Shown here: piece by piece, positions 897 through 27,944 of the stretch
Numbering within the stretch: the first letter of the stretch is position 1
Layout of the letters: each line of letters begins with the position of its first letter
Source: an uncultured Muribaculaceae bacterium
GTDB lineage: Bacteria; Bacillota_I; Bacilli_A; RF39; UBA660
Direction of reading: 5' to 3'
Length of the DNA: 36,676 nt
Assembly (NCBI GenBank): GCA_964652065.1
Contig: CAZYZU010000002.1
Coordinates: 1 to 36,676 of the forward strand
Made by a program: the position numbers and the translations under genes
Notes under the pieces: model-generated
What the model saw: only the letters and a program-made list of their open reading frames with translations
Databases searched by the model: none
Told to the model about the DNA's origin: nothing

Positions 897-2000
897 ATGA
901 AAAAAATTATAAGTATTTTAATGTTAACAATTTTTAATTTAGTACTTATTGTTTCTACATGTTTCTTTATTATTAAACCAGGTTATAATATAATTAATGA
1001 TAGTACAAAAATGAAAGTATTAAGTACAGAAGAAGTTCAAAATGAAAAGGATAAAATTAATAATAAATATATTTCATTAAGTGATAAATTAGATGCTAAG
1101 TACATTAATTTAGGAAATGAAATAAGTAATAAATATATACAAAAGAAGCAGGAATTGGAAGAAAAATACAGTAAGTTAGAAAATGAAATAAATGCTAAAT
1201 ATACTAAAAAAATGAGTGATGATGGCTGGTATGAAGAACAACAGCAAAAAAACTCTGATATTAAAAAAAATGTTACTGATCCTAAATATGCAGAAGAAAG
1301 TAAATTGGTTTTTAATGAATTTGATGAAAAAAATAATTTAGATGATAAAAAAGATAAAGAAAAAAACAATTTAATGATTAAGAAAAATTCTGAACTATCT
1401 AATATTAGTACGGAAAGTTCTAAAAAAACTCTGAAATTAATTAAGGGAATAGTAATATGTTTTATAGGATTTTTTATCATAATGGGATTGCTTTCTAAAA
1501 TTGTTTCTATATTTAATAAGCTTATTTCTAGTAAAAATAAAGTTGGAGAAAGTTGGGCTCAGGTAGAAGTCCAATTAAAGAAAAGATATGATTTAATACC
1601 AAATATAGTTGAAGTTGTTAAAGGGTATACAAAACATGAAAATAAAACTTTAACTTCAGTTGTTGAAATGAGAAATAAAGCTAATGATACTAATGATATT
1701 AATAAAGAAATAGAATTAAATACTGATATTAATAATTCATTACAAAAAATTGTTGCTTTACAAGAAGATTATCCTGATTTAAAAGCAGATAAGAGTTATT
1801 TATCATTACAAAATGATTTGAATGAAATAGAAGATGAAATTGCTACTGCAAGAAGTATTTATAATAATTCTGTTCTTAATTATAAAAATATAAAAGAAAC
1901 TTTTCCAAATAATTTATTTACAAATATATTCAATTTTAATGATTCTTCTTATTTTGAAATAAATGACGAAGATAAGAAAAATGTTAAGGTTGAATTATAA
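897..2000 (+). CDS. LemA family protein with long N-terminal K/E/N-rich coiled-coil extension
   Basis: 367-aa ORF. After an internal TM helix, the C-terminal ~170 aa (GESWAQVEVQLKKRYDLIPNIVEVVKGY...YPDLKADKSYLSLQNDL..ARSIYNNSVLNYKN) matches the LemA signature. Confidence 0.8.
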   Translation: MKKIISILMLTIFNLVLIVSTCFFIIKPGYNIINDSTKMKVLSTEEVQNEKDKINNKYISLSDKLDAKYINLGNEISNKYIQKKQELEEKYSKLENEINAKYTKKMSDDGWYEEQQQKNSDIKKNVTDPKYAEESKLVFNEFDEKNNLDDKKDKEKNNLMIKKNSELSNISTESSKKTLKLIKGIVICFIGFFIIMGLLSKIVSIFNKLISSKNKVGESWAQVEVQLKKRYDLIPNIVEVVKGYTKHENKTLTSVVEMRNKANDTNDINKEIELNTDINNSLQKIVALQEDYPDLKADKSYLSLQNDLNEIEDEIATARSIYNNSVLNYKNIKETFPNNLFTNIFNFNDSSYFEINDEDKKNVKVEL

Positions 2001-2063: not shown

Positions 2064-2092
2064 TTGACACATTTTAATTTTTTTGGTATAAT
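2064..2092 (+). promoter_or_regulatory. consensus SigA-type promoter driving the 2.1-2.7 kb non-coding region
   Basis: TTGACA (2064-2069), 17-nt spacer, TGgTATAAT extended -10 (2084-2092). Confidence 0.7.
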
Positions 2093-2099
2093 TAACTTG

Positions 2100-2690
2100 T
2101 AATTGATGGCACACTATTCTAGTCAATTACTTTATTATGAAGACGGGATTAAACAACCGTTAAAGAGCATATCTGTGAAACTTTTGGTGTTTGCTTCTTA
2201 CGCCCAGTTTGGGGTGGATGCTGAGAGGATAAGGATTTTGGGCGCTCGTAATGGCATACGACAAACGACCCAACTTCCGTGGAGACCCATACTTGTGGTA
2301 AGCCTATACGTAATTTACTGACGGACTTATTACGATGTGGATTAGAACCTATATTGTGGCGAAAGCTATGTATAGTGTAGCTTGTCTTGCGTGAGAATAT
2401 TGGGATTAATGATCTTTGCAGTTATATTGGCCAATATAATTGGAATTGCATTATGAAATTATTTTTGCAAAAAAGAACTAATAATAAAGATGGGTGGGGA
2501 AATCTCCTAGAGTGTACCGGATATAGGATTGCAGTGGACACTAAGTGGTAATCAAGTCATACGCCTCGGAAACGACGTATTAGTTTCTTTAAAGGGGAAC
2601 CACATATTTGGTAACGAATATGTAGAAACTAGGGAAATCCTACTTGACCTAAGGTTCAAAGTTTACTATATCTAAAGCCATTAATTTTTT
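2100..2690 (+). ncRNA. large structured ncRNA candidate (~590 nt), OLE-RNA-like by size and context
   Basis: Clearly more GC-rich than its flanks. The only ORF (2103..2321) has no RBS. The 5' AATTGATGGC (2101-2110) can pair with the 3' GCCATTAATT (2676-2685), which is followed by a T-run. Many local hairpins, including two GAAA-tetraloop hairpins (GGC-GAAA-GCT near 2358; TCG-GAAA-CGA near 2567). Followed by a small 4-TM protein gene. Confidence 0.5.
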
Positions 2691-2762
2691 TTTGTAATAA
2701 TTTATCTATTTTATGATAAAATTGTAGTAATAGATTTATATATATTAAAAGTGAGGATTATA

Positions 2763-3368
2763 ATGAAAATAAATAAAAAAGAAGTGGAAGATGAATTAAA
2801 AAATCTAAAGGTTCAAACTAGAAGAAAAGAAAAAATTAAAAAAGAGTTAGTAGATAAAAAATGGATTATTACTATTTTAGTAATTTCTTTTGCAATAAGT
2901 TTTTCATTATCGTTTATATCTGAAATGACTGTTCCTAAGTTTAGTTTAGTTATTGGATTAATTGTAACTTTACTATTTATATTTTTAGGTATTTTATTCG
3001 ATATAATTGGTGTTAGTGTTACTGCTGCTGATGAGAAAGTATTTCATTCAATGAATTCTAGAAAAGTACGTGGAGCAGATGTTGCAGTATTATTTAAAAA
3101 AAATTGTGATAAGGTATCAAGTTTTTGTTGTGATGTTATAGGTGATATTTGTGGAGTTATATCAGGATCTACTGCGGTTACTATTTCACTGTTAATATCA
3201 AAAAGTTTAAATTCAAATCTTTTATTAACAACTCTTATTGTAACGGGATTTATTTCTTCCTTAACAATTGGAGGTAAAGCAATAGGAAAAAGTTTTGCGA
3301 TAAATAAAAGTGATATTATTCTTTATGAGTTTTCAAAAACAATTTCTCATTTTTATAAATGTAAGTAG
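2763..3368 (+). CDS. small 4-TM membrane protein with basic N-terminus and DxxxD motif (OapA-like candidate)
   Basis: ATG at 2763 lies 5 nt after GTGAGGA. K/R-rich N-terminal ~35 aa, four predicted TM helices, motif CCDVIGDICGVISG. Terminator hairpin at 3367..3385. Confidence 0.45.
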   Translation: MKINKKEVEDELKNLKVQTRRKEKIKKELVDKKWIITILVISFAISFSLSFISEMTVPKFSLVIGLIVTLLFIFLGILFDIIGVSVTAADEKVFHSMNSRKVRGADVAVLFKKNCDKVSSFCCDVIGDICGVISGSTAVTISLLISKSLNSNLLLTTLIVTGFISSLTIGGKAIGKSFAINKSDIILYEFSKTISHFYKCK

Positions 3369-3485
3369 AGCTAAGGCTCTTTTTCTTTACTTTTTCCTTA
3401 TTTTGTGGTATAATTTACGAACAAAAGGAGGGGTAATATTGTATTTTATATTGATGGTAAAAAAGTTAGATATAATCCTTACAAT

Positions 3486-4829
3486 ATGAAAAAAGATATT
3501 AAAATAGGTGAAGGTAATGAAACTGAAGCTTATAAAATAGATAATGATGTTGTTAAATTTTATAAAGCATATTGTCAAAAGCTTAGACTTACTAAAAAAG
3601 TGTGTGATGCTTTATCTAAAATAGATACTAAAAGAATATTACTTCCTTGTAATACATTACTAGATAAGAAACATAAAATTAAAGGTTATACTATGAAATA
3701 TATTGATAATTTAGGAGAAGATAGTTTTTATAAGTTATCTAGAAAAGATTTATCTAAAGAAATGTCTTTAGTTGAGAATGATTTAATTAAATTAAGTGAT
3801 AATGGTGTTTTAATTAATGATTTACATCAAGGTAATACAATTTATAATAATGGTATTTATTTAATTGATCCTGGTAGTTATAAAATGAGTGAAGAAGATA
3901 AAAAAGAGTCTATTAAAACATATGGTATAAATTTAGATATGATTAATGAGTATTTAATTAATGAAGTAATAAAAAATTGTGCATTAAAAATTTGTAAAAA
4001 GAATGTTCAAGCGTTCGCTGTTACAAAAAAATTACAAAATGATATATATTCAAAAAGTGAAAATCCATTATATTATTTTATGGAAGATATGCAATATAAA
4101 GATATTGATGAATTAGTTATTGATTTAAGTGAAAGTCTTAAATTTAGTGTTTCAATAAATAGAAAAAAAATTAATCTTAATAAAAAGGAAATTAGTAAGT
4201 TATATAAAACAGATGATAAGGAAATATATAGTTATAAGGATAATGATGAAGATAAACTTTTATATGTATATAAAACTTCAAGAACACCTTTAAAACTAAA
4301 ACAAAAAGATTTAGATAAATTAAAAGATATTGATACTAAGAGATTTTTACTTCCAATTGATAATGTTAATGTTTCAAAAGAAGAATATTTAGGATTTACT
4401 ATCCTACAAAAAAAAGATTATGAGTATTTATTTAATGAAATAGATGGTAAAACTTTAAATAAGGAATTATCTTTGTTAAAAGAGGATGTTTTACTTTTAT
4501 CTGAAAATGGTTTTTATATTGGTGATATTGATAGAGATAGTATGATTTATGATGGGGCTATATATATTAAAAATGTTGAAGAGATTGAAAATAGTAGTGA
4601 TGAAAATTTAATTGATAAAAATATGGATAAATTAAATCAATTTATTATAAATGATATTATAAAAGAAGAATTATATGAATTTGCTAGTTCTAAAGATATA
4701 AGTAAGGTACTTTCATTTTTAAATAGTAGTAATGATTATTTTATAGGAGATACTATAAAGAATGAAATAGAAGAAAGTGAAAATTTAAAGGGTTGTGTTA
4801 AGAAGTTAATTATTAATAGAGGCAAGTAA
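3486..4829 (+). CDS. tandem protein-kinase-like (APH/CotS-type fold) protein; second copy degenerate
   Basis: Internal duplication: DTKRILLPCN...VLINDLHQGNTIYNNGIYLIDPGSY versus DTKRFLLPID...FYIGDIDRDSMIYDGAIYIKNVEEI. The true start is uncertain (see findings). Confidence 0.5.
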   Translation: MKKDIKIGEGNETEAYKIDNDVVKFYKAYCQKLRLTKKVCDALSKIDTKRILLPCNTLLDKKHKIKGYTMKYIDNLGEDSFYKLSRKDLSKEMSLVENDLIKLSDNGVLINDLHQGNTIYNNGIYLIDPGSYKMSEEDKKESIKTYGINLDMINEYLINEVIKNCALKICKKNVQAFAVTKKLQNDIYSKSENPLYYFMEDMQYKDIDELVIDLSESLKFSVSINRKKINLNKKEISKLYKTDDKEIYSYKDNDEDKLLYVYKTSRTPLKLKQKDLDKLKDIDTKRFLLPIDNVNVSKEEYLGFTILQKKDYEYLFNEIDGKTLNKELSLLKEDVLLLSENGFYIGDIDRDSMIYDGAIYIKNVEEIENSSDENLIDKNMDKLNQFIINDIIKEELYEFASSKDISKVLSFLNSSNDYFIGDTIKNEIEESENLKGCVKKLIINRGK

Positions 4830-7526: not shown

Positions 7527-7538
7527 TATTAGTCTTTT
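7513..7538. terminator. bidirectional hairpin between convergent genes
   Basis: AAAAGACTA / TAGTCTTTT 9-bp stem with an 8-nt loop. Confidence 0.55.
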
Positions 7539-8475
7539 AATTTGGTTGTCCATTTGGACATCTATTTCCCCAACTATCAATTGTTTCATTATCTTTTTTG
7601 ACGAGTATTATTTCACAATTATTAGGACATTTATTACAAAAATTAGAAGTTGTTTTATAATTATAATCTATTATATTGAAATCAAAATCAATTTCTTTTT
7701 CTTTTTTTGATAATATGGCTACACCTAAAGCACCCATTAAATGCCCATTTTCATCTGTTATTATATTGGTATTAAGTATTTCTTCAAAAGCTTTTTTTAC
7801 ACCGATATTTTTTGATACTCCTCCTTGAAATATGATTGGTTCTTTAATTTTTTTTCCTTTAGCAACATTATTTAAATAGTTTAGTGCAACACTTTTACAA
7901 AGACCGGCAACAATATCATTTTTATTATATCCCATTTGTGCTTTATGAACTAAATCACTTTCGGCAAAAACTGTGCATCTTGCTGCAATAGGAGTTGGAT
8001 TTTTACTTGTTAAGGCAATATTGCCAAAATCTTCTACATTAATACCAAGTCGTTTTGCTTGACTTGATAAAAAAGCTCCTGTTCCAGCGGCACAAAGACT
8101 GTTCATTGCATAATCTGTGACGATTTTATCTTCAATTAATATTATTTTAGAATCTTGTCCTCCAATTTCAATGATAGTTTTAATATCTTTATAAATTGAT
8201 AATGTACCAATAGCATGAGCTGTTATTTCATTTTTTATGATATTTGCATTTAATATAGAACCGATTAATTTTCTGGCTGAACCAGTTGTACCAACTCCTT
8301 TAATTTTAATAGTACTATCTAAATTATTTCTAAAATATTCAATAATTTTTTCTACTGCATTAATTGGATTACCTTCTGTCCAAATATATTTACTAAGTAA
8401 GATATTATTATCTTTATCGATTATTACCCCTTTAGTAGAAATTGATCCAATATCTATTCCTAAATATGCTTTCAT
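7537..8475 (-). CDS. BadF/BadG/BcrA/BcrD-type ATPase (CoA-substrate-specific enzyme activase) with Cys-rich C-terminal tail
   Basis: MKAYLGIDIGSISTKGVIID, GTTGSARK, EIGGQDSKII, CAAGTGAF: ASKHA-fold activase motifs. C-terminal CNKCPNNC...CPNG. Confidence 0.85.
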   Translation of the reverse strand: MKAYLGIDIGSISTKGVIIDKDNNILLSKYIWTEGNPINAVEKIIEYFRNNLDSTIKIKGVGTTGSARKLIGSILNANIIKNEITAHAIGTLSIYKDIKTIIEIGGQDSKIILIEDKIVTDYAMNSLCAAGTGAFLSSQAKRLGINVEDFGNIALTSKNPTPIAARCTVFAESDLVHKAQMGYNKNDIVAGLCKSVALNYLNNVAKGKKIKEPIIFQGGVSKNIGVKKAFEEILNTNIITDENGHLMGALGVAILSKKEKEIDFDFNIIDYNYKTTSNFCNKCPNNCEIILVKKDNETIDSWGNRCPNGQPN

Positions 8476-9536
8476 TTATTCTCCTTTCTATATTTTATTA
8501 AATCGTAAAATGCTTCTAGTATTGTCATTATTCCTTCATTAGATGTTTCACAGTCATATGAAAAAAATATAATGGGAATTTTCTTTTCAATTGCAACTTT
8601 TTTTATAATAGGTATAGCACCAACTTCTGGGGTACAACCAAAAGGTTTTGTATGAATAATTCCATCATATTTCTTAGATAATTTAATAGTTCTATAAACA
8701 TTATCTAATCCATCTGCTCCTAATGTGTATTTACAGTATTTTTTAGTATTTTTTAACATATGTTTTGTAATTAATCTTTTTTTCCATAAAAGGTATGATA
8801 GGTCTGTATATCTTTTTATTTCTATATTCATTTTAGCAAGTTCTTCTTCTAAAAAATATGAAGAAAATGGTTCCATTGAGGTATATAATTCTCCGATTAT
8901 TCCTACTTTTATGGGATGCTTTGGTTTATTAATTTTAATTTTTTTGAATTTTATTTTATATTTAAAGTAGGTAAAAGTTAATGTAGTTAGATGATTACAA
9001 TTAGAAAACGCTTTTAACATTTTATTTTGAAGAGATTTAAAACTATTTTTCTTTTCTTCAAAACCAATTCTTTTTCTGATTATAATATCTATTTTATCCA
9101 TATAATAAATAAAGAAAAAGGTAATTATAAAAGTATGGATAAATTTATAAAATGACAGGTGTTTATTTAAATCTTTAAAAATTTTATATATTTCAAAAAC
9201 ATGTAATCTATCTTTTGAAATGAGCTTTATAAATTTAAAATTATATCCTAAATCTTTTAAAATTTGCTCTTGTACTTCTGCGTAATATCTATATCTACAT
9301 CCACCTCCAGCTTGTACTAATATAGTTGTACCTTTATTAAGTGATTCTATAAAATTACCTAAGTTATATTTAAACGGAATACAGACGTCATTAGGTGAAT
9401 ATTTAGAACCTAATTCTAAGGTTTTTTTTGTAATAGGAGGGGCTTCAATTACTTCTAAATTTGTTAATTTCTTTAAAAGATATTTTACTGGTATAAAATA
9501 GTTACCAATATGAGGAAAACTAATTATTTCTTTCAT
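8472..9536 (-). CDS. 2-hydroxyacyl-CoA dehydratase-like / activase-associated subunit
   Basis: Overlaps both neighbours by a few nt (operon). Resembles the uncharacterised C-terminal halves of fused activase proteins. Assignment rests mainly on context. Confidence 0.5.
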   Translation of the reverse strand: MKEIISFPHIGNYFIPVKYLLKKLTNLEVIEAPPITKKTLELGSKYSPNDVCIPFKYNLGNFIESLNKGTTILVQAGGGCRYRYYAEVQEQILKDLGYNFKFIKLISKDRLHVFEIYKIFKDLNKHLSFYKFIHTFIITFFFIYYMDKIDIIIRKRIGFEEKKNSFKSLQNKMLKAFSNCNHLTTLTFTYFKYKIKFKKIKINKPKHPIKVGIIGELYTSMEPFSSYFLEEELAKMNIEIKRYTDLSYLLWKKRLITKHMLKNTKKYCKYTLGADGLDNVYRTIKLSKKYDGIIHTKPFGCTPEVGAIPIIKKVAIEKKIPIIFFSYDCETSNEGIMTILEAFYDLIKYRKENK

Positions 9537-10446
9537 TATATTCCTCCTTTTGTTTTAAAATATCAAAGAAACTTTCTAATCTTGTAATTATTCCAATATC
9601 ACTATTTATATCTTCCATAATAAGTTTTAATATTGGAATGTTTTTTATTTTTCTTATTGCTAATTCATTTGAAAGAGAATCAGGTCCACATGGAAATGAT
9701 GAAATCATAATAATACCATCTACTTTATCTTTATAATAATTAATACTTGCCATTACTTCTTTGCTGTGAGTCCAGTGGATATCTGTTGATATTTTTTCAC
9801 ATTCATCATCAATTAATTTGTGATTTATTGCATCACTATAGATGATAGTAATATTTTCATTTTTTAAGTAATCTATTATTGGTTTTCCAATTAAATTATC
9901 ATAGGTAATATAGGGATGAGCTGCGATAAGTATTTTTAAATTATCTTTTTTTAAATTATTTTCTTGAATATCTTCTTTTTCTAATCTTTGTTCTAAGTAT
10001 TTCTTTTTAGCAAATTTATAAGCATTATAACTATTAATATAAGAAAAACCTAAATCTTTTCCTAAATTTAGAAATCCTAATAATTCACTGTCTTTTGTTG
10101 TTAAATCAACATTGTAATTAAGAATGTTAATATCGTTAAATGTGTTATTTACTAAATCATATAAACAATTAAAATTTGTACAAACTTGTTCATTCTTTTT
10201 TACTGAAAATAATCTTGGTACTAAAATATAGTCACATTTATTTATTAAGTTATTTACATGACCTAAATATAATTTTAGAGAAAGACATGCTTCATCATTG
10301 GAAAGTGTATTTCCTTTTTCTAATATTTCTTTGTTACTTATATCACTTAATATTATGTCAATTTTTAAATATTTAAAAAAATTTATCCATAAATTTTTAT
10401 AGTAGTAATATAGTAAAGATTTAGGTATTCCTATTTTTATTTTCAT
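9520..10446 (-). CDS. 2-hydroxyacyl-CoA dehydratase-like / activase-associated subunit
   Basis: First gene of the three-gene minus-strand operon. Overlaps the next gene by 17 nt. Confidence 0.5.
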   Translation of the reverse strand: MKIKIGIPKSLLYYYYKNLWINFFKYLKIDIILSDISNKEILEKGNTLSNDEACLSLKLYLGHVNNLINKCDYILVPRLFSVKKNEQVCTNFNCLYDLVNNTFNDINILNYNVDLTTKDSELLGFLNLGKDLGFSYINSYNAYKFAKKKYLEQRLEKEDIQENNLKKDNLKILIAAHPYITYDNLIGKPIIDYLKNENITIIYSDAINHKLIDDECEKISTDIHWTHSKEVMASINYYKDKVDGIIMISSFPCGPDSLSNELAIRKIKNIPILKLIMEDINSDIGIITRLESFFDILKQKEEYNERNN

Positions 10447-17029: not shown

Positions 17030-17035
17030 ATATGT

Positions 17036-17257
17036 AGATGCATTGATATCGAGGAGTATATAATAAAAATTTTTAGAGAGGTTATGGTTGCTGAAAATAA
17101 CTAATTGATATTATAGAAGGTAGCGATGGAGCATAGTTATTGAAAATAAGTAAATAATTCCGGATAATTCCGTTAAAAATATTGAGATTATTATTTAATA
17201 ATAAATTAAGGTGGTACCACGAACTATTCGTCCTTATAGGATGGGTAGTTTTTTTTT
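17036..17257 (+). promoter_or_regulatory. T-box leader, probable Val specificity
   Basis: Stem I AGAGA bulge (about 17075). Candidate specifier GUA at 17120-17122 in GAAGGUAGC. T-box sequence AATTAAGGTGGTACCACG (17204-17221). Terminator CTATTCGTCC/AGGATGGGTAG plus T9 (17224-17257). Confidence 0.8.
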
Positions 17258-17271
17258 GGAGGGATATAGTT

Positions 17272-18027
17272 ATGGATAGAGCTATTGAAGAGTTTAAAAT
17301 TTATACTGATTCTTATATTGAAATAAGTGATAAATGTGTATTAAAAATAGATCATACTTTTCGAGTCATGGAATTATGTAAAAAGATTGCTTTGAGTTTA
17401 AATTTAAATAAAGAAGACATATCTTTAGCAATGTTATGTGGACTATTACATGATATTGGTAGATTTGAACAATGGAAGAGATATAATACTTTTGTAGATG
17501 GTAAAAGTATTGATCATGGCGATTTAGGAGTAGAAATTTTAACAACAAATAAATTTTTAAGAAAATTTATTGATTCTGAAGAATTTGATTCAATTATATT
17601 AAATAGTGTTTTATTTCATAATAAATATAATATTTCAAATGAATTGAGTGAGCGTGAAAAACTTTTTTGTAAAATAGTTAGAGATGCTGATAAAATTGAT
17701 ATTTTATATTTATATACAATTGGGCATTTAAGTGTTGATACAAATAATGAAATTTTTAGTGATGATGTATTAAATTCTTTAAGAAATAATAAGTTAATAG
17801 AAAGAAAAATGAAAAAGACTAAGGCAGATACTCTATCTGTATCACTGGGATTTGTTTTTGATATTAATTTTAAAAAAAGTATTGAAATATTAAAGAAAAA
17901 TAATTATATAAATAAGGAAATTGATATTTATAAAGAAAAAACTAATAATTTAGATTTTATTAATGAATTAGAAGAAGTTAGATTAATAATAAATAAATAT
18001 ATAGAAAGTAGGTTAGAATTATGTTAG
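17272..18027 (+). CDS. HD-domain phosphohydrolase
   Basis: ATG at 17272 after [18 protein letters not shown] motif. Stop overlaps the valS start (ATGTTAG). Confidence 0.7.
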
Positions 18028-18932
18028 ATAAAAAATATAATCATATAGAAGTAGAAGAGGGTAAATATAATGAATGGATAGAAAAAGGATATTTTTCATC
18101 GGGAGATATGTCAAAGAAACCTTTTTGCGTAGTTATTCCTCCACCAAATGTTACAGGTAAACTTCACTTAGGTCATGCTTGGGATGTAACACTTCAAGAT
18201 ATTATAATTCGTTATAAAAGAATGCAAGGATATGACTGTTTATGGCTTCCAGGAATGGATCATGCAGGTATTGCTACTCAAGCTAAAGTTGATAAAAAGT
18301 TACGTGATGAAGGAGTTAATCCTAGATCATTATCAAGAGAAGAATGGACTAAAAAAGCTTGGGAATGGAAAGATGAATTTGCACAAACTATTCATTCTCA
18401 ATGGGCTAAGATGGGTATTAGTGTTGATTATAATAAAGAAAGATTTACATTAGATGATGGTCTTAATCAAGCAGTTAACAAAGTGTTTATTGACTTATAT
18501 AATAAGGGTTTAATATATAGAGGAGAAAGAATTATTAACTGGGATCCTGTTCAAATGACAGCTTTATCTAATGAAGAAGTTATTTATCAAGATGATCCAG
18601 GGGCATTTTATCATTTGAAATATTTTATTGAAGATAGTGATAAATATTTAGAAGTTGCGACAACTCGTCCTGAAACATTATTTGGCGATACTGCAGTAGC
18701 AGTTAATCCAGAAGATGATAGATATAAAGATTTAATAGGAAAGAATGTTGTTTTACCAATAGTTAATAAGCTAATTCCAATTGTAGGAGATTCTCATGCT
18801 GATCCTGAGTTTGGTACTGGTGTTGTTAAAACGACACCCCTTGGTACAAACTCAATATTTACAAGGGTTAGCGAAGGGATAATGAACATAATTAATCAAT
18901 TATTTATACAAAGAAAAGAGGTAAATGCATAA
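18021..18932 (+). pseudogene. valS: 5' fragment of bacterial-type valS (native codons 1-270, then a 33-codon element-derived tail)
   Basis: [19 protein letters not shown] block ... [11 protein letters not shown]. The frame then diverges into TTPLGTNS... at 18831. The continuation is found at 30840. Confidence 0.9.
18832..18848 (+). repeat. left terminal arm (attL, element side)
   Basis: CGACACCCCTTGGTACA is an inverted partner of 30818..30836. Confidence 0.7.
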
Positions 18933-21349
18933 TGTTAGATAAAAAATATAACGCACAAGAAAAAGAAGAAAAATGGTTAAATTATTGGAAAGAAAATGGA
19001 GTTTATGATTTTAAACCAGATCAAAGAGAAGTTTTCTCAATAGATACTCCACCACCAACAGTTAATGGAAAAATACATATTGGACATATTTTTTCATATT
19101 CACAAACTGAAATGATTGCAAGATATAAAAGACTAAGAGGGTATAATATCTTTTATCCATTTGGATTTGATGATAATGGATTACCTAGTGAAAGATTAGT
19201 AGAAAAAGAACAAGGCAAAAAAGCACATGAAATTGGAAGAGAAGAATTTTCAAAATTATGTTATGAAACTACTGATAAATATGAGGCTGATTTTCAAAAC
19301 TTATTTAGTAAAATGGGAGTTAGTACAGATTGGAATATTCATTACAAAACGGTAAGCCCATCAACAATTAAAATTAGTCAAACATCATTTTTAGATTTAA
19401 TTGATAAAGGACATTGTTATCATAAAGAAAGTCCTGCATTATGGTGCAATGAATGTTTAACATCAATCGCACAAGCAGAACTTGAAACAAAAACAATTAA
19501 AACAACATTTAATTATGTTAATTTTAAAACAGTTGAAGATGGTGAAGAATTTACAATAGCAACTACTAGACCTGAATTATTACCAGCCATTGTATGCGTA
19601 TTTGTAAATCCTAAAGATGAAGAACATAATCATTTAATTGGAAAAACTGCTCATATTCCAGTTATAGATGTTGAAGTACCAATTATGGGTGATGAAAAAG
19701 TAGCAATTGATAAAGGTACAGGAGTTGTTATGTGCTGTACATTCGGTGATCAAACTGATATTGAATGGTGGAAGAAATATAATTTACCACTTAAGTATAT
19801 TTTTACTGCAGATGGTAAAATTATTGATTCTGTACCAAATTATGGTGGAATGAAAATAAAAGCAGCTAGAAAACAAATTGTTGAAGATTTACAGGCAGGT
19901 GGCTTTATTGTAAAAATAGAAGAATTAGAACACGAAGTACAAACACATGAAAGATGTGGAAGAGAAGTAGAATATTCAGTAATGAAACAATGGTTTATTG
20001 ATATTATGAACCATAAAAAAGATTTCTTGAAAATTGGTAATGAAATAAAATGGCATCCTGAACATATGCATAATAGATATAATGAATGGGTTGAAAATAT
20101 TTTATGGGATTGGTGTATTTCAAGACAAAGATATTTTGGTGTACCATTTCCAGTATGGTATTGTAAGGATTGTGGAGAACCTATCTTTGCTAAAAAAGAA
20201 GATTTACCAATTAATCCACTAACAACTAAACCACATATTGATAAATGTCCTAAATGTAATTGCAGTGAATTTGTTGCTGAAACTGATGTAATGGATACTT
20301 GGGCAACTTCATCTGTTACACCACTTATTAATATGAGATACGGTGAAAAAGAAAATTATGAAGACATATTAAAACCAATGAGTATAAGAACAAATGCATC
20401 TGAGATTATTAGGACATGGGATTTTTATACAATTGTAAAAAGTTTTTATCATTTTGGTATGCGTCCATGGAATAATGTTATGATTTCAGGATTTGTTATG
20501 GCAAGTAAAGGTGAAAAGATTAGTAAAAGTAAAGGAAATGCTAAAGTTGAACCAATAGATGTTATTAATCAATATTCTGCCGATGTAGTTAGATATTGGG
20601 CTGGATCAGGAAGACTTGGAACTGATATTGTATTTAGTGATGAAACTTTATTAAGAGGAAGAAAATTAGTTAATAAAATATGGAATGTCTCAAAATTTAT
20701 TGAAATGCATTTACAAGATTATGAAGATAAAGAGTTTAATAATTTTGAATATGTAGATAAATGGATATTGGGAAAATTTCAAGAAATGGAAGAAGGATTT
20801 GTTAAATATTTAGATGATTATGAAGTTGGATTAGCACTTAATCATTTAGAAAAATTCTTTTGGAATTTCTGTGATAATTATATAGAAATAGTTAAGCATA
20901 GACTATATAGACCTGAAGAATTTGGAGATGAACCAAGATATTCAGGACAAAAAACTGTATTTACAATATTATATAAATTATTACAAGACTTTAGTATATT
21001 CTTCCCATTTATTACTGAAGAAATATATCAAGAACTATATCATGGTAATAAATCAGTTCATTTAACTGAAATTAAACCATTAAATTTTGATTTTAGTAAA
21101 GAAATTATTAATGGTGATAAAATGATTGATATTATAAGTCAAGCAAGAGGAGAAAAATCAAATAATAATTTATCTTTAAAAACTCCTATAAAAATATTAG
21201 AATTAGGTGTTAATGAAGAACTTAAAAATGCTATAGAATCTTCTATTAAAGATTTTAAAGCAACATTATTTATAAAAGATTTAAAAATAGATATTTCTAA
21301 TGATGATAAAATAAATAAAATTGAATTAGAAATTGAAACAACAGAGTAA
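18932..21349 (+). CDS. valS: valine--tRNA ligase, divergent type-2 (archaeal/actinobacterial-like), element-encoded
   Basis: 805 aa. HIGH NGKIHIGHIFSY. KMSKS-like GEKISKSKGN. FPFGFDDNGLPSE, GTGVVMCCTFGDQTD, WCISRQRYFGVPFPVWYC. No C-terminal coiled coil. ATG overlaps the upstream TAA. Confidence 0.85.
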   Translation: MLDKKYNAQEKEEKWLNYWKENGVYDFKPDQREVFSIDTPPPTVNGKIHIGHIFSYSQTEMIARYKRLRGYNIFYPFGFDDNGLPSERLVEKEQGKKAHEIGREEFSKLCYETTDKYEADFQNLFSKMGVSTDWNIHYKTVSPSTIKISQTSFLDLIDKGHCYHKESPALWCNECLTSIAQAELETKTIKTTFNYVNFKTVEDGEEFTIATTRPELLPAIVCVFVNPKDEEHNHLIGKTAHIPVIDVEVPIMGDEKVAIDKGTGVVMCCTFGDQTDIEWWKKYNLPLKYIFTADGKIIDSVPNYGGMKIKAARKQIVEDLQAGGFIVKIEELEHEVQTHERCGREVEYSVMKQWFIDIMNHKKDFLKIGNEIKWHPEHMHNRYNEWVENILWDWCISRQRYFGVPFPVWYCKDCGEPIFAKKEDLPINPLTTKPHIDKCPKCNCSEFVAETDVMDTWATSSVTPLINMRYGEKENYEDILKPMSIRTNASEIIRTWDFYTIVKSFYHFGMRPWNNVMISGFVMASKGEKISKSKGNAKVEPIDVINQYSADVVRYWAGSGRLGTDIVFSDETLLRGRKLVNKIWNVSKFIEMHLQDYEDKEFNNFEYVDKWILGKFQEMEEGFVKYLDDYEVGLALNHLEKFFWNFCDNYIEIVKHRLYRPEEFGDEPRYSGQKTVFTILYKLLQDFSIFFPFITEEIYQELYHGNKSVHLTEIKPLNFDFSKEIINGDKMIDIISQARGEKSNNNLSLKTPIKILELGVNEELKNAIESSIKDFKATLFIKDLKIDISNDDKINKIELEIETTE

Positions 21350-21354
21350 TTTTA

Positions 21355-21382
21355 AAACATAGATAATTTCTATGTTTTTTTT
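21355..21382 (+). terminator. intrinsic terminator after element valS
   Basis: AAACATAG-ATAATTT-CTATGTTT followed by a T-run. Confidence 0.7.
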
Positions 21383-21407
21383 GAACAAAATTGGAGGTGA
21401 TAAATAA

Positions 21408-22165
21408 ATGACAGTTTTTAAAATTGAAAAACAAAGGATTTTACTGTAATGAGTAATCATCATTTAAGAGATAGAAACTTAACATATAAGGCTAAAGGAT
21501 TGTTATCATTCATGATATCTTTACCAGAAGATTGGGATTATTCTTTAGCAGGTTTGACAGCGATAAGTAGAGAAAGTAAGGATGGAATAAGATCAATTTT
21601 AAAAGAATTGCAGGATAATCATTACTTGGAAATAGAAAAAGTAAGAGGAGAAAAAGGATATTTTGAATATAATTATTTAATATATGAAAAACCACATTTT
21701 TTGTCATATGAAATTGACAATCAAAATCCATGTATGGAAAATCCACATCTGGATGAACCAGATATGGAAATATCAATACAAATAAATACTAATATATTAA
21801 ATACTAAGGAACAAATAGATAAAGGTGATAAAACAAAATCATCTTTTTTTATTGCTGAAGAACATAATGGCTTAACATTAAATTTGATTAATCGTGGTTA
21901 TATTAATGAATCTGATTTACAAGTTTTTTACTATGATAAAATGTATGATGATTTATTAGATGATGATAATTCATATAGAGATTTGTTAATTATATCTGAT
22001 TATGTTGTAAGTAGAGTAATAAAAAGAGATTTCAAAGATGATGATGGTAATGTAATAAAAAATAAATTTGGTTATTTAAAAGAGGGGATATATGTAAATA
22101 TCAGAAGAAGTCATTTGGATTTAGATGATTTATGGGGATTAAATGATGATGATATTGAAAGATAA
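21408..22165 (+). pseudogene. wHTH replication-initiator-like protein (plasmid/ICE Rep type), N-terminus frameshifted
   Basis: Strong RBS GGAGGTGA before ATG 21408 gives MTVFKIEKQRILL*. The main ORF (21449..22165, MSNHHLRDRNLTYKAKGLLSFMISLPEDWDYS) lies in another frame, and its upstream extension reads KDFTV. Confidence 0.55.
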
Positions 22166-22293
22166 TTTTTGTTTATCCAATTTTATATGATAAAAGAAAA
22201 TTATATTATAATACTAAAAACAGAATTATCCTTTATTGTGATAACTTTTTAATATAGAAAAATTGATATAGTAAAAAAATAAACTAAAATGTA

Positions 22294-22322
22294 TTGACTT
22301 AATTCAATAATAGTAGTATTAT
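22294..22322 (+). promoter_or_regulatory. promoter of leader ORF/RSH/YcaO/precursor unit
   Basis: TTGACT, 17-nt spacer, TATTAT. Confidence 0.5.
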
Positions 22323-22356
22323 TTAACTTAAATTATTTGAAAGGGGATTCTAAACT

Positions 22357-22482
22357 ATGAATAAACTCTTATTAGAAAAACAATTTAATAAAAATAGTTT
22401 TTATTACAAAATCATTTGCAACAATGACTGTTTATGCCTTTCCCTTGATAATATTACTATGTGTAAAAGAGTTCGACTTTAA
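22357..22482 (+). CDS. 41-codon Cys-rich small ORF (leader peptide or second RiPP substrate)
   Basis: MNKLLLEKQFNKNSFYYKIICNNDCLCLSLDNITMCKRVRL. RBS AAAGGGGA. The stop codon lies inside the 5' arm of the downstream terminator. Absent from the ORF track. Confidence 0.4.
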   Translation: MNKLLLEKQFNKNSFYYKIICNNDCLCLSLDNITMCKRVRL

Positions 22483-22511
22483 AATTATTATGTTTTAAAG
22501 TCGTCTTTTTT
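22473..22511 (+). terminator. intrinsic terminator/attenuator immediately upstream of the RSH gene
   Basis: CGACTTTAAA ... TTTAAAGTCG stem followed by TCTTTTTT. Ends 18 nt before ATG 22529. Confidence 0.65.
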
Positions 22512-22528
22512 ATAAGAAGGAGTATTTT

Positions 22529-23968
22529 ATGAGTGAAATTACTGTTGAATATTTATTAAAAAAGATAAAAGAATATAATCCAGAAGAAGAAAAGTCGATA
22601 ATGAAAGCTTATGAATTTGCCAATAATCTACATAGTGGTCAAATTAGACAGAGTGGTGAACCTTATATATCTCATCCATTGAATGTTGCTTATATTCTTG
22701 CTGAAATGAATGCAGATAAAGATACAATTTGTGCAGGATTATTACATGATACTTTGGAAGACACCAATACCACAAAAGAAGATATTTCACATGAATTTAA
22801 TGCTACTGTTGCTAACTTGGTTGATGGAGTAACAAAAATGAGCAAAATGAATTTTTCTTCTAAGCAAGCACAAAATATGGCAAACACAAGAAAAATAATT
22901 ACAGGAATTACTGAAGATGTTAGAATAATAATTATAAAGTTAGCAGATAGATTACATAATATGAGAACATTAGAATTTAAAAGTGAGTTTAAACAAAAAG
23001 AAAATGCACTAGAAACTATGGAAATATTTGTTCCACTTGCTTACTACATTGGTGCATATAGAATAAAATCTGAGTTAGAGGATTTATCTCTACAATATTT
23101 AAAACCAGATATGTATAAGACAATAAAGGAAAAACAACAAAAAATAGAATATGAAAGCAGAGATTGCTTACAAGAAATGTTAGGAAAAATTAAATCAATG
23201 TTAGAAGATAAGGATATTCCTAATGAAATTAAAGTTAGAACTAAAAATATTTATGGAATATACAAAAGATTAAATGATGGACATAAATTATCTGATATTC
23301 ATGATTTACTAGCATTGAAAATAATGGTAGATGAGATTGATAATTGTTATAGAACTTTAGGTATGATTCATCAAGAATATCATCCAATCAATGATAAGTT
23401 TAAAGATTATATTTGTAATCCAAAAACAAATATGTATAGATCATTACATACTACTGTTTTTGGACCTGATGATAGATTAGTACAAACACAAGTAAGAACA
23501 TTTGATATGGATAAGATTGCATCTTTTGGATTAACAGCATATTGGGCAGTACAAAAAGGGAAAGCAAGAGATGTTATGCAAAAAGATTTAAAAGAAAAAT
23601 ATCAGTTTTTTAAATCTTTAACTGAAATCAATACAATGTTTGGGGATAATCAACAATTTGTAAGTCAAGTTAAATGCGAATTATTTGCCGACAAAGTTTA
23701 TGCATACACCACCAAAGGTGATATAATTGAACTTCCTAAAGGTTCAACACCAATTGACTTTGCTTATAAAATTCATACTGATATTGGAAACACAATGGTT
23801 GGGGCTTTTGTAAATGATGAATATGTTCCTGTTGATTATATGTTAAGGAACAAAGATAGGGTAAAAATAATTACTGATGATTTATCATTTGGTCCAAGAA
23901 ACGATTGGGAAGAAAAGGCGCAAACCACATATGCAAAGAGAAAAATAAAAGAATTTAGTAAAAAATGA
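22529..23968 (+). CDS. truncated RelA/SpoT homologue (HD hydrolase + synthetase-like + TGS; no C-terminal regulatory domains)
   Basis: HPLNVA...LLHDTLEDT, DRLHNMRTL (hydrolase). VRTKNIYGIYKRL, DLLALKIMV, YRSLHTTV, QTQVRT (synthetase-like). TGS VYAYTTKGDIIELPKGSTPIDFAYKIH. Ends at the position where the helical/ZFD/ACT region normally begins. Confidence 0.85.
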   Translation: MSEITVEYLLKKIKEYNPEEEKSIMKAYEFANNLHSGQIRQSGEPYISHPLNVAYILAEMNADKDTICAGLLHDTLEDTNTTKEDISHEFNATVANLVDGVTKMSKMNFSSKQAQNMANTRKIITGITEDVRIIIIKLADRLHNMRTLEFKSEFKQKENALETMEIFVPLAYYIGAYRIKSELEDLSLQYLKPDMYKTIKEKQQKIEYESRDCLQEMLGKIKSMLEDKDIPNEIKVRTKNIYGIYKRLNDGHKLSDIHDLLALKIMVDEIDNCYRTLGMIHQEYHPINDKFKDYICNPKTNMYRSLHTTVFGPDDRLVQTQVRTFDMDKIASFGLTAYWAVQKGKARDVMQKDLKEKYQFFKSLTEINTMFGDNQQFVSQVKCELFADKVYAYTTKGDIIELPKGSTPIDFAYKIHTDIGNTMVGAFVNDEYVPVDYMLRNKDRVKIITDDLSFGPRNDWEEKAQTTYAKRKIKEFSKK

Positions 23969-23984
23969 AGTTTGAGGTGATGAT

Positions 23985-26111: not shown

Positions 26112-26157
26112 CATTTAAAATGTTAATATATATTTATATATGAAAGGAGGTGATATT

Positions 26158-26271
26158 ATGGATAAGAAAGTTTTAAATTTCAAAAGTGTTAAATATACAA
26201 AATCAAACTCATTAGCAGCATGCGTAACTGGTGGTGGTGGTTGTGCTTGTGATGATGGTACAGGCGAATAA
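26158..26271 (+). CDS. 37-aa RiPP precursor peptide candidate (azol(in)e-type core)
   Basis: MDKKVLNFKSVKYTKSNSLAACVTGGGGCACDDGTGE. Near-consensus RBS GAAAGGAGGTGA 5 nt upstream. Terminator follows. Absent from the ORF track. Confidence 0.75.
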   Translation: MDKKVLNFKSVKYTKSNSLAACVTGGGGCACDDGTGE

Positions 26272-26288
26272 TCATTATTTGAGTTATA

Positions 26289-26317
26289 ACATCAGATTTT
26301 AATCTGGTGTTTTTTTA
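26289..26317 (+). terminator. intrinsic terminator after precursor gene
   Basis: ACATCAGAT / ATCTGGTGT stem followed by T7. Confidence 0.7.
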
Positions 26318-26371
26318 TAATTAATTATAATTATCATCTGATATTAATTGGGTAAGTAAAAAATGTAGCTA

Positions 26372-26815: not shown

Positions 26816-26920
26816 GTAAACACCTCTTTAATAATTTTCTCATTTATAAATAAATAATTTAAAAAGTGTCGGGTATAGTCCTAAAATGTGATATAATATT
26901 TAAATGAAAGAGGTGATTTT

Positions 26921-27214: not shown

Positions 27215-27299
27215 ATATTATTAGTTAATATTGTTTACATATCGTAGTTTTAAATATATAATAGAAAACTACTAGCGAAAAGTATTGGAAGGTTATAAT

Positions 27300-27659: not shown

Positions 27660-27944
27660 GGACAAAACAAATAAAAAATCGAAAAAGTGCTTGAATTGGT
27701 ACTATAAGGTGTTTTTATTGTTCCAATATTATGCCTTAATTGGTACGAAAAAAGTGTTGATTTATCCTTGTCAAGTAGTATAATAATGTAAAATGAAATA
27801 AATGTGAGAAGAAAAAACACTTCTTGCATTTTTTTTGTTTAAAAAGTGTTGACAAGATAATCAAAAGAATATAAAATAAAAAATAATTTTATATGTAACT
27901 TTGATGGCAGTATTTTTCAAAGAACAATGTTGGGAGGAAACTCA

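What the first reader, a model, noticed from the sequence alone, without database searches (positions are those of the whole stretch)
2064..3368. ~0.6-kb GC-enriched non-coding transcript under a consensus promoter, followed by a 4-TM DxxxD protein: OLE RNA/oapA-like pair
A perfect TTGACA-17-TGnTATAAT promoter precedes ~590 nt with no credible ORF. This stretch is markedly more GC-rich than the surrounding DNA. Its ends are complementary (2101-2110 with 2676-2685). It contains many hairpins, including two GAAA tetraloops. It lacks the RNase P (GAGGAAAGTCC) and tmRNA signatures. The next gene encodes a ~200-aa protein with a basic N-terminus, four TM helices and a DVIGD (DxxxD) motif. From memory, that matches the description of OapA, the membrane partner encoded immediately downstream of OLE RNA in anaerobic or extremophilic Bacillota. 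If it is not OLE, it would be an unclassified large ornate RNA.
Basis: partly seen in the sequence, partly recalled or inferred. Interest (0 to 1): 0.65.

Follow-up and report, generated by a model that had tools for sequence, protein, structure and literature searches.

The report
OLE RNA gene with oapA partner
This is an ordinary, full-length copy of the already described OLE RNA, a large structured bacterial non-coding RNA, followed by the gene for its membrane-protein partner OapA, in an uncultured low-GC Bacilli bacterium from anaerobic digesters.

Summary
Window 2090-2697 (+) matches Rfam OLE (RF01071) over the whole model at 376 bits (threshold 50, E 4e-107). No other large-RNA family matches there.

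72 related genomes carry the same ~600-nt RNA just upstream of the same protein gene. Across them an independently predicted fold has 168 pairs. Of the sequence-by-pair cells, 97.6% are paired (38-44% when partners are slid), and 87 pairs show compensatory changes.

The perfect TTGACA-17-TGnTATAAT promoter is real and keeps its position in 65 of 71 relatives. Three metatranscriptomes hold near-identical contigs covering essentially only the RNA.

The next gene (2763-3368, 201 aa) has the published OapA hallmarks: position next to ole, four long helices, an invariant DVIGD (DxxxD) motif, a basic N-terminus and a CNNM/CorB-like predicted fold. It matches no curated protein family, and I could not compare it directly with the validated H. 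halodurans OapA.

The RNA keeps P7 and P8, so it is the "full-length" type, not the reduced variants reported for genome-reduced gut lineages. This is an already known kind, and interest is low.

Two side leads:
- A cassette of RIO/Bud32-like mini-kinase genes follows oapA.
- valS is split by a 12-kb recombinase element that carries its own valS.

The parts
2064..2092 (+). Sigma-70-type promoter of ole: -35 TTGACA (2064-2069), 17-nt spacer, extended -10 TGgTATAAT (2084-2092). The inferred transcription start is about 2099-2100.
   Evidence: 12/12 match with TG. Conserved in sequence and position in 65 of 71 relatives, 47 of them perfect. The start site is inferred from spacing, not measured.
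2099..2694 (+). OLE RNA gene (ole), full-length type, about 595 nt. The Rfam match itself spans 2090-2697.
   Evidence: RF01071 at 376 bits, E 3.8e-107, model 1-616. 168 pairs, 87 with compensatory changes, 97.6% of cells paired against 38-44% when slid. MFE z-score -3.04. RNA contigs cover 2116-2674 in three metatranscriptomes.
2101..2110 (+). P1 5' arm. It pairs with 2677-2686 (10 bp, one G-U) and closes the whole RNA.
   Evidence: Sequence. MFE. The core 2107-2110/2677-2680 is recovered by RNAalifold with one compensatory pair.
2112..2122 (+). P2 5' arm (CACUAUUCUAG). It pairs with 2507-2514 (CUAGAGUG).
   Evidence: 8 pairs; A-U to G-C change in 6 sequences.
2130..2138 (+). P3 5' arm (CUUUAUUAU). 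It pairs with 2481-2489 and encloses domain 1 (P4-P9). The published model has this stem crossing the membrane.
   Evidence: 5 of 8 pairs with compensatory changes. The Rfam model does not annotate this stem. Role taken from PMC12265935.
2142..2161 (+). P4 hairpin with the A-rich loop GAUUAAACAA (2147-2156), a reported dimer contact.
   Evidence: UAAA in the loop is invariant in 73 sequences. Role from PMC12265935.
2165..2168 (+). 5' arm of a long-range helix (GAGC). It pairs with 2380-2383 (GCUU) and encloses P5-P8. It is probably the published P4a.
   Evidence: pair 79/329: G-C in 39 sequences, A-U in 32. The name is my inference from the text of PMC9723947 and PMC12265935.
2182..2228 (+). 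P5/P5.1 long hairpin with the invariant loop GCCCA (2202-2206), a kissing-loop partner of P6.1. The flanking joining regions can form the OapC k-turn.
   Evidence: Roles from PMC12265935 and PMC9723947.
2234..2277 (+). P6/P6.1 hairpin with the invariant loop AAUGGCAU (loop core 2251-2256).
2286..2341 (+). P7 hairpin. It is present here and truncated or absent in some relatives.
   Evidence: 12 of 13 pairs with compensatory changes.
2347..2378 (+). P8 hairpin closed by a GAAA tetraloop (2361-2364).
2385..2476 (+). P9 long arm with the palindromic loop UGGCCA (2428-2433), a reported self-kissing dimer contact.
   Evidence: GGCC is conserved in at least 90% of sequences. Role from PMC12265935.
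2496..2506 (+). Small conserved hairpin GGG-GAAAU-CUC (P10 by order).
2518..2674 (+). 3' part of domain 2. Outer stems are 2518-2526/2666-2674 and 2531-2542/2652-2662. P12.2 is 2547-2557/2642-2649. P13 is 2559-2580, with a GAAA loop at 2569-2572 and a two-base bulge at C2564-C2565. P14 is 2582-2588/2624-2630. P14.1 is 2602-2623, with a GUAA loop at 2611-2614. P15 is 2631-2641.
   Evidence: Stem names were matched to the four-way junction described in PMC7936274.
2685..2693 (+). U9 tract directly after the P1 3' arm, a possible 3' end or partial terminator of OLE.
   Evidence: Sequence. A run of at least 5 T occurs here in only 22 of 78 relatives, so it is not a conserved feature. RNA contigs end at 2660-2674.
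2753..3368 (+). oapA: Shine-Dalgarno GAGGA (2753-2757) and CDS 2763-3368 (201 aa). The DVIGD (DxxxD) motif is encoded at 3132-3146.
   Evidence: (D124 and D128 invariant in 50 homologs). It lies directly downstream of OLE in the window and in 72 relatives.
3367..3390 (+). Intrinsic-terminator-like hairpin AGAGC-UAAG-GCUCU followed by a T-rich tail. This is the likely end of the ole-oapA unit.

Best explanation
The region is a compact ole-oapA unit.

Shown here:
- A strong, conserved extended -10 sigma-70 promoter (2064-2092) sits about 7 nt upstream of a ~595-nt RNA.
- That RNA is a full-length member of the OLE (ornate, large, extremophilic) class, with P1-P15 including P7 and P8.
- The next gene encodes a 201-aa, four-helix membrane protein with the OapA hallmarks.
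- RNA matching only the OLE segment is present in metatranscriptomes.

Inferred from work on Halalkalibacterium halodurans and on the Clostridium OLE cryo-EM structures:
- The RNA folds into two domains and dimerises through its conserved P4 A-rich loop, P5.1/P6.1 kissing loops and palindromic P9 loop. All four motifs are conserved here.
- It is bound by an OapA dimer and held at, or possibly spans, the cell membrane.
- The ribonucleoprotein helps the cell cope with stresses such as short-chain alcohols, cold, excess Mg2+ and poor carbon sources.
- The chemical activity of the RNA is unknown for the whole class.

How oapA is expressed was not resolved. It may be read through from the ole promoter, since the U tract after P1 is not conserved, or it may use a weak promoter of its own.
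For: - Rfam: RF01071 hit at 376 bits, E 3.8e-107, covering model 1-616. No other large-RNA family matches.
- Relatives: 72 of the 80 loci found through the protein alone carry a full-length OLE homolog on the same strand just upstream.
- Fold: RNAalifold without any Rfam input recovers P1-P9 and the 3' domain, with 87 of 168 pairs showing compensatory changes.
- Controls: 97.6% of cells are paired against 38-44% when partners are slid. 0 of 500 shuffles reach the observed values.
- Single-sequence fold: z-score -3.04.
- Promoter: perfect in the window and conserved in position in 65 of 71 relatives.
- RNA contigs: in three metatranscriptomes the near-identical contigs lie only at 2116-2674. 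Examples are X12 2194-2660 (1 difference) and X17 2194-2573 (0 differences). The flanking genes have depth 0, apart from partly matching X12 contigs at low depth over the start of oapA and further downstream.
- Protein: adjacency to ole, four long helices (pLDDT 86.9), invariant DVIGD and a basic N-terminus. 24 of 50 close homologs hit Pfam CNNM below threshold. The only Foldseek matches with high probability (0.97-1.00; best E 0.005, none at or below 0.001) are the CNNM proteins MtCorB 7m1t and CorC 7cff. This mirrors what Fernando and Breaker report for H. halodurans OapA (PMC11332333).
Against: - Nothing here measures function, membrane localisation or RNA-protein binding.
- The protein matches no curated Pfam or NCBIfam family and no PDB sequence. 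I could not align it directly with the experimentally validated OapA.
- The RNA evidence comes from unstranded assembled contigs of mixed communities. Depth is a poor measure of abundance, and the very high depth at 2160-2290 comes from segments shared with other species' OLE RNAs.
- No oapB or oapC (ybxF) gene lies in the 36.7-kb window.
- The P13 bulge is two bases rather than the single base needed for OapB binding in H. halodurans.
- One relative (L025) has the oapA homolog but no OLE on its 4.3-kb contig.
Confidence: 0.96

Rival explanations
1. The structured RNA acts mainly in cis as a long 5' leader of the oapA mRNA, like a riboswitch or attenuator, and not as a free-standing non-coding RNA.
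For: It has the same strand and promoter as oapA. Only about 70 nt separate it from the start codon. No scanner-detected promoter can serve ATG 2763. The U tract after P1 is absent in most relatives, so read-through is likely. X12 shows low coverage running into oapA.
Against: The OLE class has been shown experimentally to be an abundant processed RNA that forms an RNP (PMC12265935). In two metatranscriptomes (X11, X17) contigs stop within the RNA and oapA has depth 0. One relative has 3.2 kb and two ORFs inserted between ole and oapA (L072). About 600 nt with about 25 helices and intermolecular contact loops is far beyond any known leader.
Confidence: 0.05
2. It is a decaying or functionally reduced OLE relic in a genome-reduced bacterium, like the shortened variant 1 and variant 2 OLE RNAs of TANB77 and RF39 lineages.
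For: The relatives are uncultured, very low-GC Bacilli labelled Mollicutes, Tenericutes or Mycoplasma-like. Some relatives have lost most of P7 (L070, L048, L050, L033, L060, L078, L017, L019) or the tip of P9 (L061). A small variable hairpin of the Rfam model (positions 424-435) is missing.
Against: The window copy covers the full model and keeps P7 and P8. 97.6% of pair cells are maintained, with many compensatory changes. All four dimer-contact loops are conserved (invariant, or GGCC in at least 90% of sequences). The promoter is perfect and conserved. RNA is detected.
Confidence: 0.02
3. It is a different element: another large ornate RNA (ROOL, GOLLD, raiA), a group I or II intron, or a degraded protein-coding gene.
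For: Three mechanical ORFs of 48-72 aa exist in the region.
Against: A scan of all 4227 Rfam families at their gathering scores returns only OLE here. The region shows base-pair covariation and non-triplet indels rather than codon-like conservation.
Confidence: 0.01

Closest known systems
OLE RNA (Rfam RF01071), as studied in Halalkalibacterium halodurans and solved by cryo-EM for Clostridium acetobutylicum and C. botulinum
   Same: Same length class (~600 nt), with a full-model match at 376 bits. Same helices P1-P15. Same conserved blocks, including the P4 A-rich loop, the P5.1 and P6.1 loops, the palindromic P9 loop, and GNRA loops on P13 and P14.1. oapA lies immediately downstream.
   Different: Here the gene has its own perfect promoter placed right at P1. 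It is flanked by a glucosaminidase-like gene or LemA upstream and by kinase-like and ABC-F genes downstream. In H. halodurans it sits inside a long polycistronic cluster with the gene classes reported as its typical neighbours (PMC12265935). Other differences are very low GC, a missing small hairpin (Rfam positions 424-435) and a two-base P13 bulge.
Variant 1 (TANB77) and variant 2 (RF39) OLE RNAs (Fernando and Breaker 2024, PMC11332333)
   Same: The hosts are uncultured, genome-reduced, low-GC Bacillota. Some close relatives of the window show partial loss of P7 or P9.
   Different: The window RNA keeps full P7, P8 and P9 and the P13 GNRA loop, so it belongs to the full-length type.
OapA (OLE-associated protein A)
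   Same: It is the immediate downstream neighbour of ole, about 200 aa, with four long hydrophobic helices, an invariant DxxxD motif, clusters of basic residues and a CNNM/CorB-like predicted fold.
   Different: Direct alignment with the validated H. halodurans protein was not possible with the tools. RNA binding is untested.
CNNM/CorB/CorC/MpfA Mg2+ transporters (Pfam PF01595)
   Same: The transmembrane fold resembles MtCorB (7m1t, Foldseek probability 1.00) and CorC (7cff, 0.97). Half of the close homologs give sub-threshold PF01595 hits.
   Different: It has no CBS-pair or CorC_HlyC domains. It has four helices where CorB has three, as the literature reports for OapA. It has a DxxxD motif that CNNM domains lack, and it scores below the Pfam threshold. 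It is not a member of that family.

Membership tests
OLE RNA (RF01071) | Covariance-model score above the curated gathering score, over the whole model | tested here: met
   376 bits against 50, E 3.8e-107, model 1-616, not truncated.
OLE RNA (RF01071) | About 600 nt with an ornate, conserved secondary structure supported by covariation | tested here: met
   About 595 nt. 168 pairs in 27 helices. 87 pairs with compensatory changes across 73 sequences. 97.6% of cells paired against 38-44% when slid. 0 of 500 shuffles reach the observed values.
OLE RNA (RF01071) | Highly conserved loop and junction sequences, including the four dimer contacts (P4 A-rich loop, P5.1 loop, P6.1 loop, palindromic P9 loop) | tested here: met
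   UAAA (P4), GCCCA (P5.1) and AAUGGCAU (P6.1) are invariant. GGCC (P9) is conserved in at least 90% of 73 sequences. Dimerisation itself was not tested.
OLE RNA (RF01071) | oapA gene immediately downstream | tested here: met
   CDS 2763-3368, starting 69 nt after the U tract. The same arrangement occurs in 72 relatives.
OLE RNA (RF01071) | Host is an anaerobic or extremophilic member of Bacillota | tested here: met
   Relatives are labelled Bacilli, Erysipelotrichaceae or Mollicutes-like MAGs. The sequence itself occurs in bioreactor, biogas, manure, compost and wastewater metagenomes. That the host is an anaerobe is inferred from these habitats.
OLE RNA (RF01071) | Produced as a discrete, stable transcript | tested here: met
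   Near-identical contigs confined to 2116-2674 occur in three metatranscriptomes. The flanks have depth 0, apart from low-depth, partly matching X12 contigs. The contigs are unstranded, ends are imprecise and abundance rank was not measurable.
OLE RNA (RF01071) | OapB site: P13 GNRA tetraloop plus a single-nucleotide bulge | tested here: inconclusive
   The GAAA loop (2569-2572) is present and the four-way junction is conserved. The bulge is two bases (C2564-C2565), while many relatives have one. No oapB lies in the window.
OLE RNA (RF01071) | Membrane localisation and RNP formation; stress phenotypes on deletion | not testable with these tools
   This needs experiments and the organism is uncultured.
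OLE variant 2 (RF39 type) | Complete absence of P7 and P8 | tested here: not met
   P7 (2286-2341) and P8 (2347-2378) are present and covary.
OapA | Four predicted transmembrane helices in a ~200-aa protein | tested here: met
   The AF2 model (pLDDT 86.9) has long helices at 32-56, 62-88, 115-149 and 153-181. Hydropathy peaks appear for three of them. The fourth carries the two Asp residues.
OapA | Conserved DxxxD motif | tested here: met
   DVIGD at residues 124-128. D124, V125, G127 and D128 are invariant in 50 homologs.
OapA | Distant similarity to the CNNM domain (sub-threshold PF01595; CorB as top structural match) | tested here: met
   24 of 50 close homologs hit PF01595, best E 9.4e-6, though the window protein itself does not. 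Foldseek gives MtCorB 7m1t at probability 1.00 and CorC 7cff at 0.97, with nothing else above 0.10.
OapA | Cluster of positively charged residues on the cytoplasmic face | tested here: inconclusive
   13 K/R in residues 1-33 and 6 K/R in loop 89-116. Which side of the membrane they face was not determined.
OapA | Sequence homology to the validated H. halodurans OapA; cooperative 2:1 binding to OLE RNA | not tested
The family search gave 1315 unnamed clusters. Binding needs experiments.
CNNM/MpfA Mg2+ transporter | PF01595 above threshold, together with CBS-pair and CorC_HlyC domains | tested here: not met
   The window protein has no PF01595 hit, even at E 10. At 201 aa it has no room for the cytosolic domains.

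The most novel reading that the evidence does not exclude
In this clade of uncultured Bacilli, ole-oapA is a self-contained module driven by a perfectly conserved strong promoter. In about half of the relatives it is followed by one to three tandem genes for ~220-aa RIO/Bud32-like atypical kinases (fused into one 447-aa protein in the window), and then by a conserved ABC-F ATPase. The most novel reading not excluded is that these mini-kinases are lineage-specific partners or outputs of the OLE ribonucleoprotein. That would give the proposed 'bTOR' stress-signalling idea a physical kinase link.
Probability: 0.1. Interest if true: 0.65.

Novelty: already known. Interest (0 to 1): 0.2.

Why it matters
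OLE is one of the largest and best conserved bacterial non-coding RNAs whose chemistry is still unknown. This copy adds no new kind of element, and any Rfam-based annotation would label it.

Its modest value is comparative. It shows a full-length OLE with all dimer-contact motifs in a very AT-rich, apparently genome-reduced digester and gut lineage, organised as a minimal promoter-ole-oapA unit. Close relatives show natural deletions of P7 and of the P9 tip. Such compact natural variants can help define the minimal functional RNA.

The conserved neighbours (a glucosaminidase-like gene, kinase-like genes and an ABC-F ATPase) offer candidates for functional partners.

Tried and rejected
- Pfam and NCBIfam scans of the 201-aa protein gave no family. 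The only hit was a sub-threshold, spurious OPT match.
- A PDB sequence search with it found nothing.
- I tried to tie the protein to the validated OapA by name. The homolog list and cluster look-ups of ten diverse representatives carry no informative names or organisms, so that link stays indirect.
- Classification as a variant 2 OLE, suggested by the Mollicutes-like relatives, was rejected because P7 and P8 are present.
- I looked for oapB and oapC in the window with Pfam scans of all ORFs of at least 90 aa. No KOW-type or L7Ae-type protein was found, which says nothing about the rest of the genome.
- The promoter-like site at 2735-2764 was rejected as the oapA promoter, because its -10 element overlaps the start codon.
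- Single-sequence Pfam and PDB searches of the 447-aa downstream protein gave nothing. Only a profile of 38 modules gave weak kinase hits.
- Phage and plasmid searches with the element-borne ValRS gave matches of 36% identity or less and no informative context.
Full report
**What is there.** A scan of the whole window against all 4227 Rfam families at their gathering scores gives one match in the flagged region. It is OLE (RF01071) at 2090-2697 on the plus strand, 376 bits against a threshold of 50, E 3.8e-107, covering model positions 1-616 without truncation. The remaining Rfam hits in the window are a T-box leader (17034-17238) and three tRNAs.

**The observation.**
- The promoter is exactly as described: TTGACA at 2064-2069, a 17-nt spacer, TG at 2084-2085 and TATAAT at 2087-2092, a 12/12 match. 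In DNA this AT-rich the total count of promoter-like sites equals the shuffle expectation, so the match alone proves little.
- GC rises to 0.41 at 2101-2400, against 0.18-0.25 in the flanks.
The helix is 2101-2110 with 2677-2686, 10 bp including one G-U.
- The two GAAA tetraloops are at 2361-2364 and 2569-2572.
- Three mechanical ORFs of 48-72 aa lie in the stretch, but the region evolves as RNA (see below).

**Independent comparative evidence.**
- I searched one genome per species for relatives of the downstream protein only. This returned 80 loci, all uncultured Bacilli labelled variously as Bacilli, Erysipelotrichaceae, Mollicutes, Tenericutes or Mycoplasma sp..
- nhmmer with the window RNA found a full-length homolog (about 550-615 nt) on the same strand just upstream of the protein gene in 72 of them. 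Most of the rest are cut by contig ends.
- A MAFFT alignment of the 73 RNAs has 78% mean column identity.
- RNAalifold, run with no Rfam input, predicts 168 pairs, 87 of them with compensatory double changes. It recovers the long-range helices that the Rfam model does not annotate:
  - P1 core, 2107-2110 with 2677-2680.
  - P2, 2112-2122 with 2507-2514.
  - P3, 2130-2137 with 2482-2489.
  - A four-pair helix, 2165-2168 with 2380-2383, which encloses P5-P8 and is probably the published P4a.
- On that structure 97.6% of sequence-by-pair cells form standard pairs. This falls to 38-44% when the 3' partners are slid by 1-3 columns. Pairs with double changes number 87, against 27-41 when slid. No shuffle out of 500 reaches the observed values.
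- The single sequence folds with z = -3.04.

**Which kind of OLE.** Fernando and Breaker (2024, PMC11332333) distinguish three types. These are full-length OLE, variant 1 (short P7-P9 and no OapB site, mostly TANB77) and variant 2 (no P7 or P8, mostly RF39). Both variants occur in genome-reduced gut lineages.
- I matched stems to the published numbering from the text of PMC12265935, PMC7936274 and PMC9723947. The figures were not available, so names beyond P1-P9 and P12.2-P15 are inferred by order.
- The window RNA has P7 (2286-2341), P8 (2347-2378, GAAA loop) and a full P9 (2385-2476). It is therefore the full-length type.
- All four dimerisation contacts seen by cryo-EM are conserved. These are the A-rich P4 loop, the P5.1 loop GCCCA, the P6.1 loop AAUGGCAU and the palindromic P9 loop GGCC.
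- The four-way junction P12.2/P13/P14/P15 is present, with GNRA loops on P13 (GAAA) and P14.1 (GUAA). The P13 bulge is two bases here (C2564-C2565), where H. halodurans OapB needs a single base.
- A small variable hairpin of the Rfam model (positions 424-435) is missing in the whole clade.
- Some relatives have natural deletions of most of P7 (L070, L048, L050, L033, L060, L078, L017, L019) or of the P9 tip (L061). They still score 349-381 bits.

**Transcription.**
- What lifts the promoter above chance is conservation. 65 of 71 relatives have a match of at least 10/12 (47 perfect, 62 with the TG extension) ending 11-17 nt, mostly 13-15 nt, before the P1 core. This places the inferred start at about 2099-2100, right at the 5' arm of P1.
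- A U9 tract (2685-2693) follows P1 in the window, but only 22 of 78 relatives have such a run. Termination after OLE is therefore not a conserved feature, and read-through into oapA is plausible.
- A terminator-like hairpin follows oapA at 3367-3380.
- The exact sequence occurs in bioreactor, biogas-fermenter, manure, compost and wastewater metagenomes, and in four RNA libraries.
- In three metatranscriptomes the near-identical contigs lie only at 2116-2674, for example 2194-2660 with one difference and 2194-2573 with none. The upstream LemA gene has depth 0. So do oapA and the downstream gene in two of the three runs. The third run (X12) has only low-depth, partly matching contigs there.
- The very high depths at 2160-2290 belong to contigs that continue into unlike sequence. 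They come from conserved segments of other species' OLE RNAs.
- These contigs are unstranded assemblies, so ends and abundance remain approximate. The fourth library (X6) behaves like DNA.

**The protein.**
- The CDS runs from ATG 2763 to 3368 and encodes 201 aa. It has a GAGGA Shine-Dalgarno sequence at 2753-2757 and matches the database entry exactly.
- It matches no Pfam, NCBIfam or PDB sequence.
- It has 5634 homologs at 90% clustering and 1315 clusters at 50%, nearly all small single-domain proteins.
- It carries the features the literature gives for OapA:
  - It is the immediate downstream neighbour of ole.
  - It has four long helices at 32-56, 62-88, 115-149 and 153-181 in an AF2 model with pLDDT 86.9 and pTM 0.76.
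  - It has a DVIGD motif whose D124 and D128 are invariant in 50 homologs.
  - 13 of its first 33 residues are K/R.
  - It has a distant CNNM relationship. 24 of 50 close homologs hit PF01595 below threshold. The only high-probability structural matches (0.97-1.00; best E 0.005) are the CNNM proteins MtCorB 7m1t and CorC 7cff. This mirrors the published CorB match for H. halodurans OapA.
- It lacks the cytosolic domains of CNNM/MpfA transporters, so it is not one of them.
- I could not align it directly with the validated OapA, because no names or organisms were retrievable.

**How it most likely works.** The anatomy above is shown. The rest is inferred from the family. The RNA folds into domain 1 (P3-P9) and domain 2 (P1, P2, P10-P15). 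It dimerises through the conserved loops and is bound by an OapA dimer at the membrane. In the recent model the P3 stems cross the bilayer (PMC12265935). The particle supports growth under alcohol, cold, Mg2+ and carbon-source stress in H. halodurans. The chemistry of the RNA is unknown for the whole class. Rival readings are a cis-acting leader, a decaying relic, or another RNA or a coding gene. They are disfavoured for the reasons given in the rivals section.

**Context.** In this clade the local gene order is: a glucosaminidase-like gene, then ole, then oapA, then zero to three ~220-235-aa genes, then an ABC-F ATPase. Among the relatives, a LemA homolog lies between the glucosaminidase-like gene and ole in none. 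The window and its same-species contig L081 have one there. This is not the neighbourhood described for H. halodurans.

**Verdict.** The finding is a correct rediscovery of a known RNA class and its partner gene. The kind is already known and the interest is low.

**Seen in passing.**
- The 447-aa ORF after oapA (3486-4829) is a fusion of two copies of the ~220-aa module. A profile of 38 modules weakly matches RIO1 and Bud32 kinases over the P-loop/lysine and the catalytic-loop/metal-binding motifs (E 0.002-0.009).
- valS is split at 18021-18932 and 30834-32558 by a ~12-kb element that ends in a large serine recombinase. The element carries a complete valS of another type (983 bits to NCBIfam PRK13208). 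That gene's start codon overlaps the stop of the truncated host gene, so it sits under the host T-box.

Noticed in passing
window 18021-32558: valS appears split. ORF 18021-18932 matches bacterial ValRS profile positions 2-269, and ORF 30834-32558 matches positions 265-857. The ~12-kb insert between them ends in a large serine recombinase (28811-30802, CcrB/XisF-like). It begins with a complete valS of a different type (18932-21349, 983 bits to PRK13208). That gene's ATG overlaps the stop codon of the truncated host gene, so it sits under the host promoter and T-box. The junctions share the core GTAC(A/C)AA, and joining them restores ...[14 protein letters not shown]. The insert also carries a RelA/SpoT homolog, a SagB-YcaO fusion (RiPP-like) and an XRE regulator.
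   Followed up: partly
window 3486-4829; L058:6660-8724 and other loci: The gene after oapA is a fusion of two ~220-aa modules that are 24% identical to each other. Relatives carry one to three separate tandem copies between oapA and an ABC-F gene (38 loci). No single-sequence family hit was found. A profile of 38 modules weakly matches RIO1 (E 0.0017) and Bud32 (E 0.006-0.009) kinases over the P-loop/Lys and catalytic-loop motifs. In some strains of the same species the ORF is split into 277 + 118 aa (L081, L085).
   Followed up: partly
window 17034-17238: A T-box leader (134.7 bits) lies upstream of an HD-domain ORF (about 17260-18027) and the truncated valS. Its specifier codon was not read.
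   Followed up: no
L070, L048, L050, L033, L060, L078, L017, L019 (P7); L061:5246-5820 (P9): Close relatives of the window OLE have natural deletions of most of P7 or of the distal half of P9. The two rescanned with Rfam (L061, L078) still score 349-381 bits. They are natural minimised variants within one clade.
   Followed up: partly
L025:1-760 and L072:1-3303: One relative has the oapA homolog preceded by an unrelated coding gene, a terminator and a promoter, with no OLE on its 4.3-kb contig. Another has a 913-aa ORF and a 104-aa ORF inserted between the OLE 3' end and oapA.
   Followed up: partly
window 897-2000: A LemA-family gene with a long, low-complexity, K/N/E-rich N-terminal extension sits between the glucosaminidase-like gene and ole. 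It is there in the window and its same-species contig L081, but in none of the 80 relatives. In most relatives the glucosaminidase-like gene lies directly upstream of ole.
   Followed up: partly
window 7537-10446 (minus strand): A three-gene set: a BcrAD/BadFG-type activase ATPase, an HGD-D-like protein and DUF2229 (a CoA-enzyme activase domain). This resembles a 2-hydroxyacyl-CoA-dehydratase-type system, which fits an anaerobic lifestyle.
   Followed up: no
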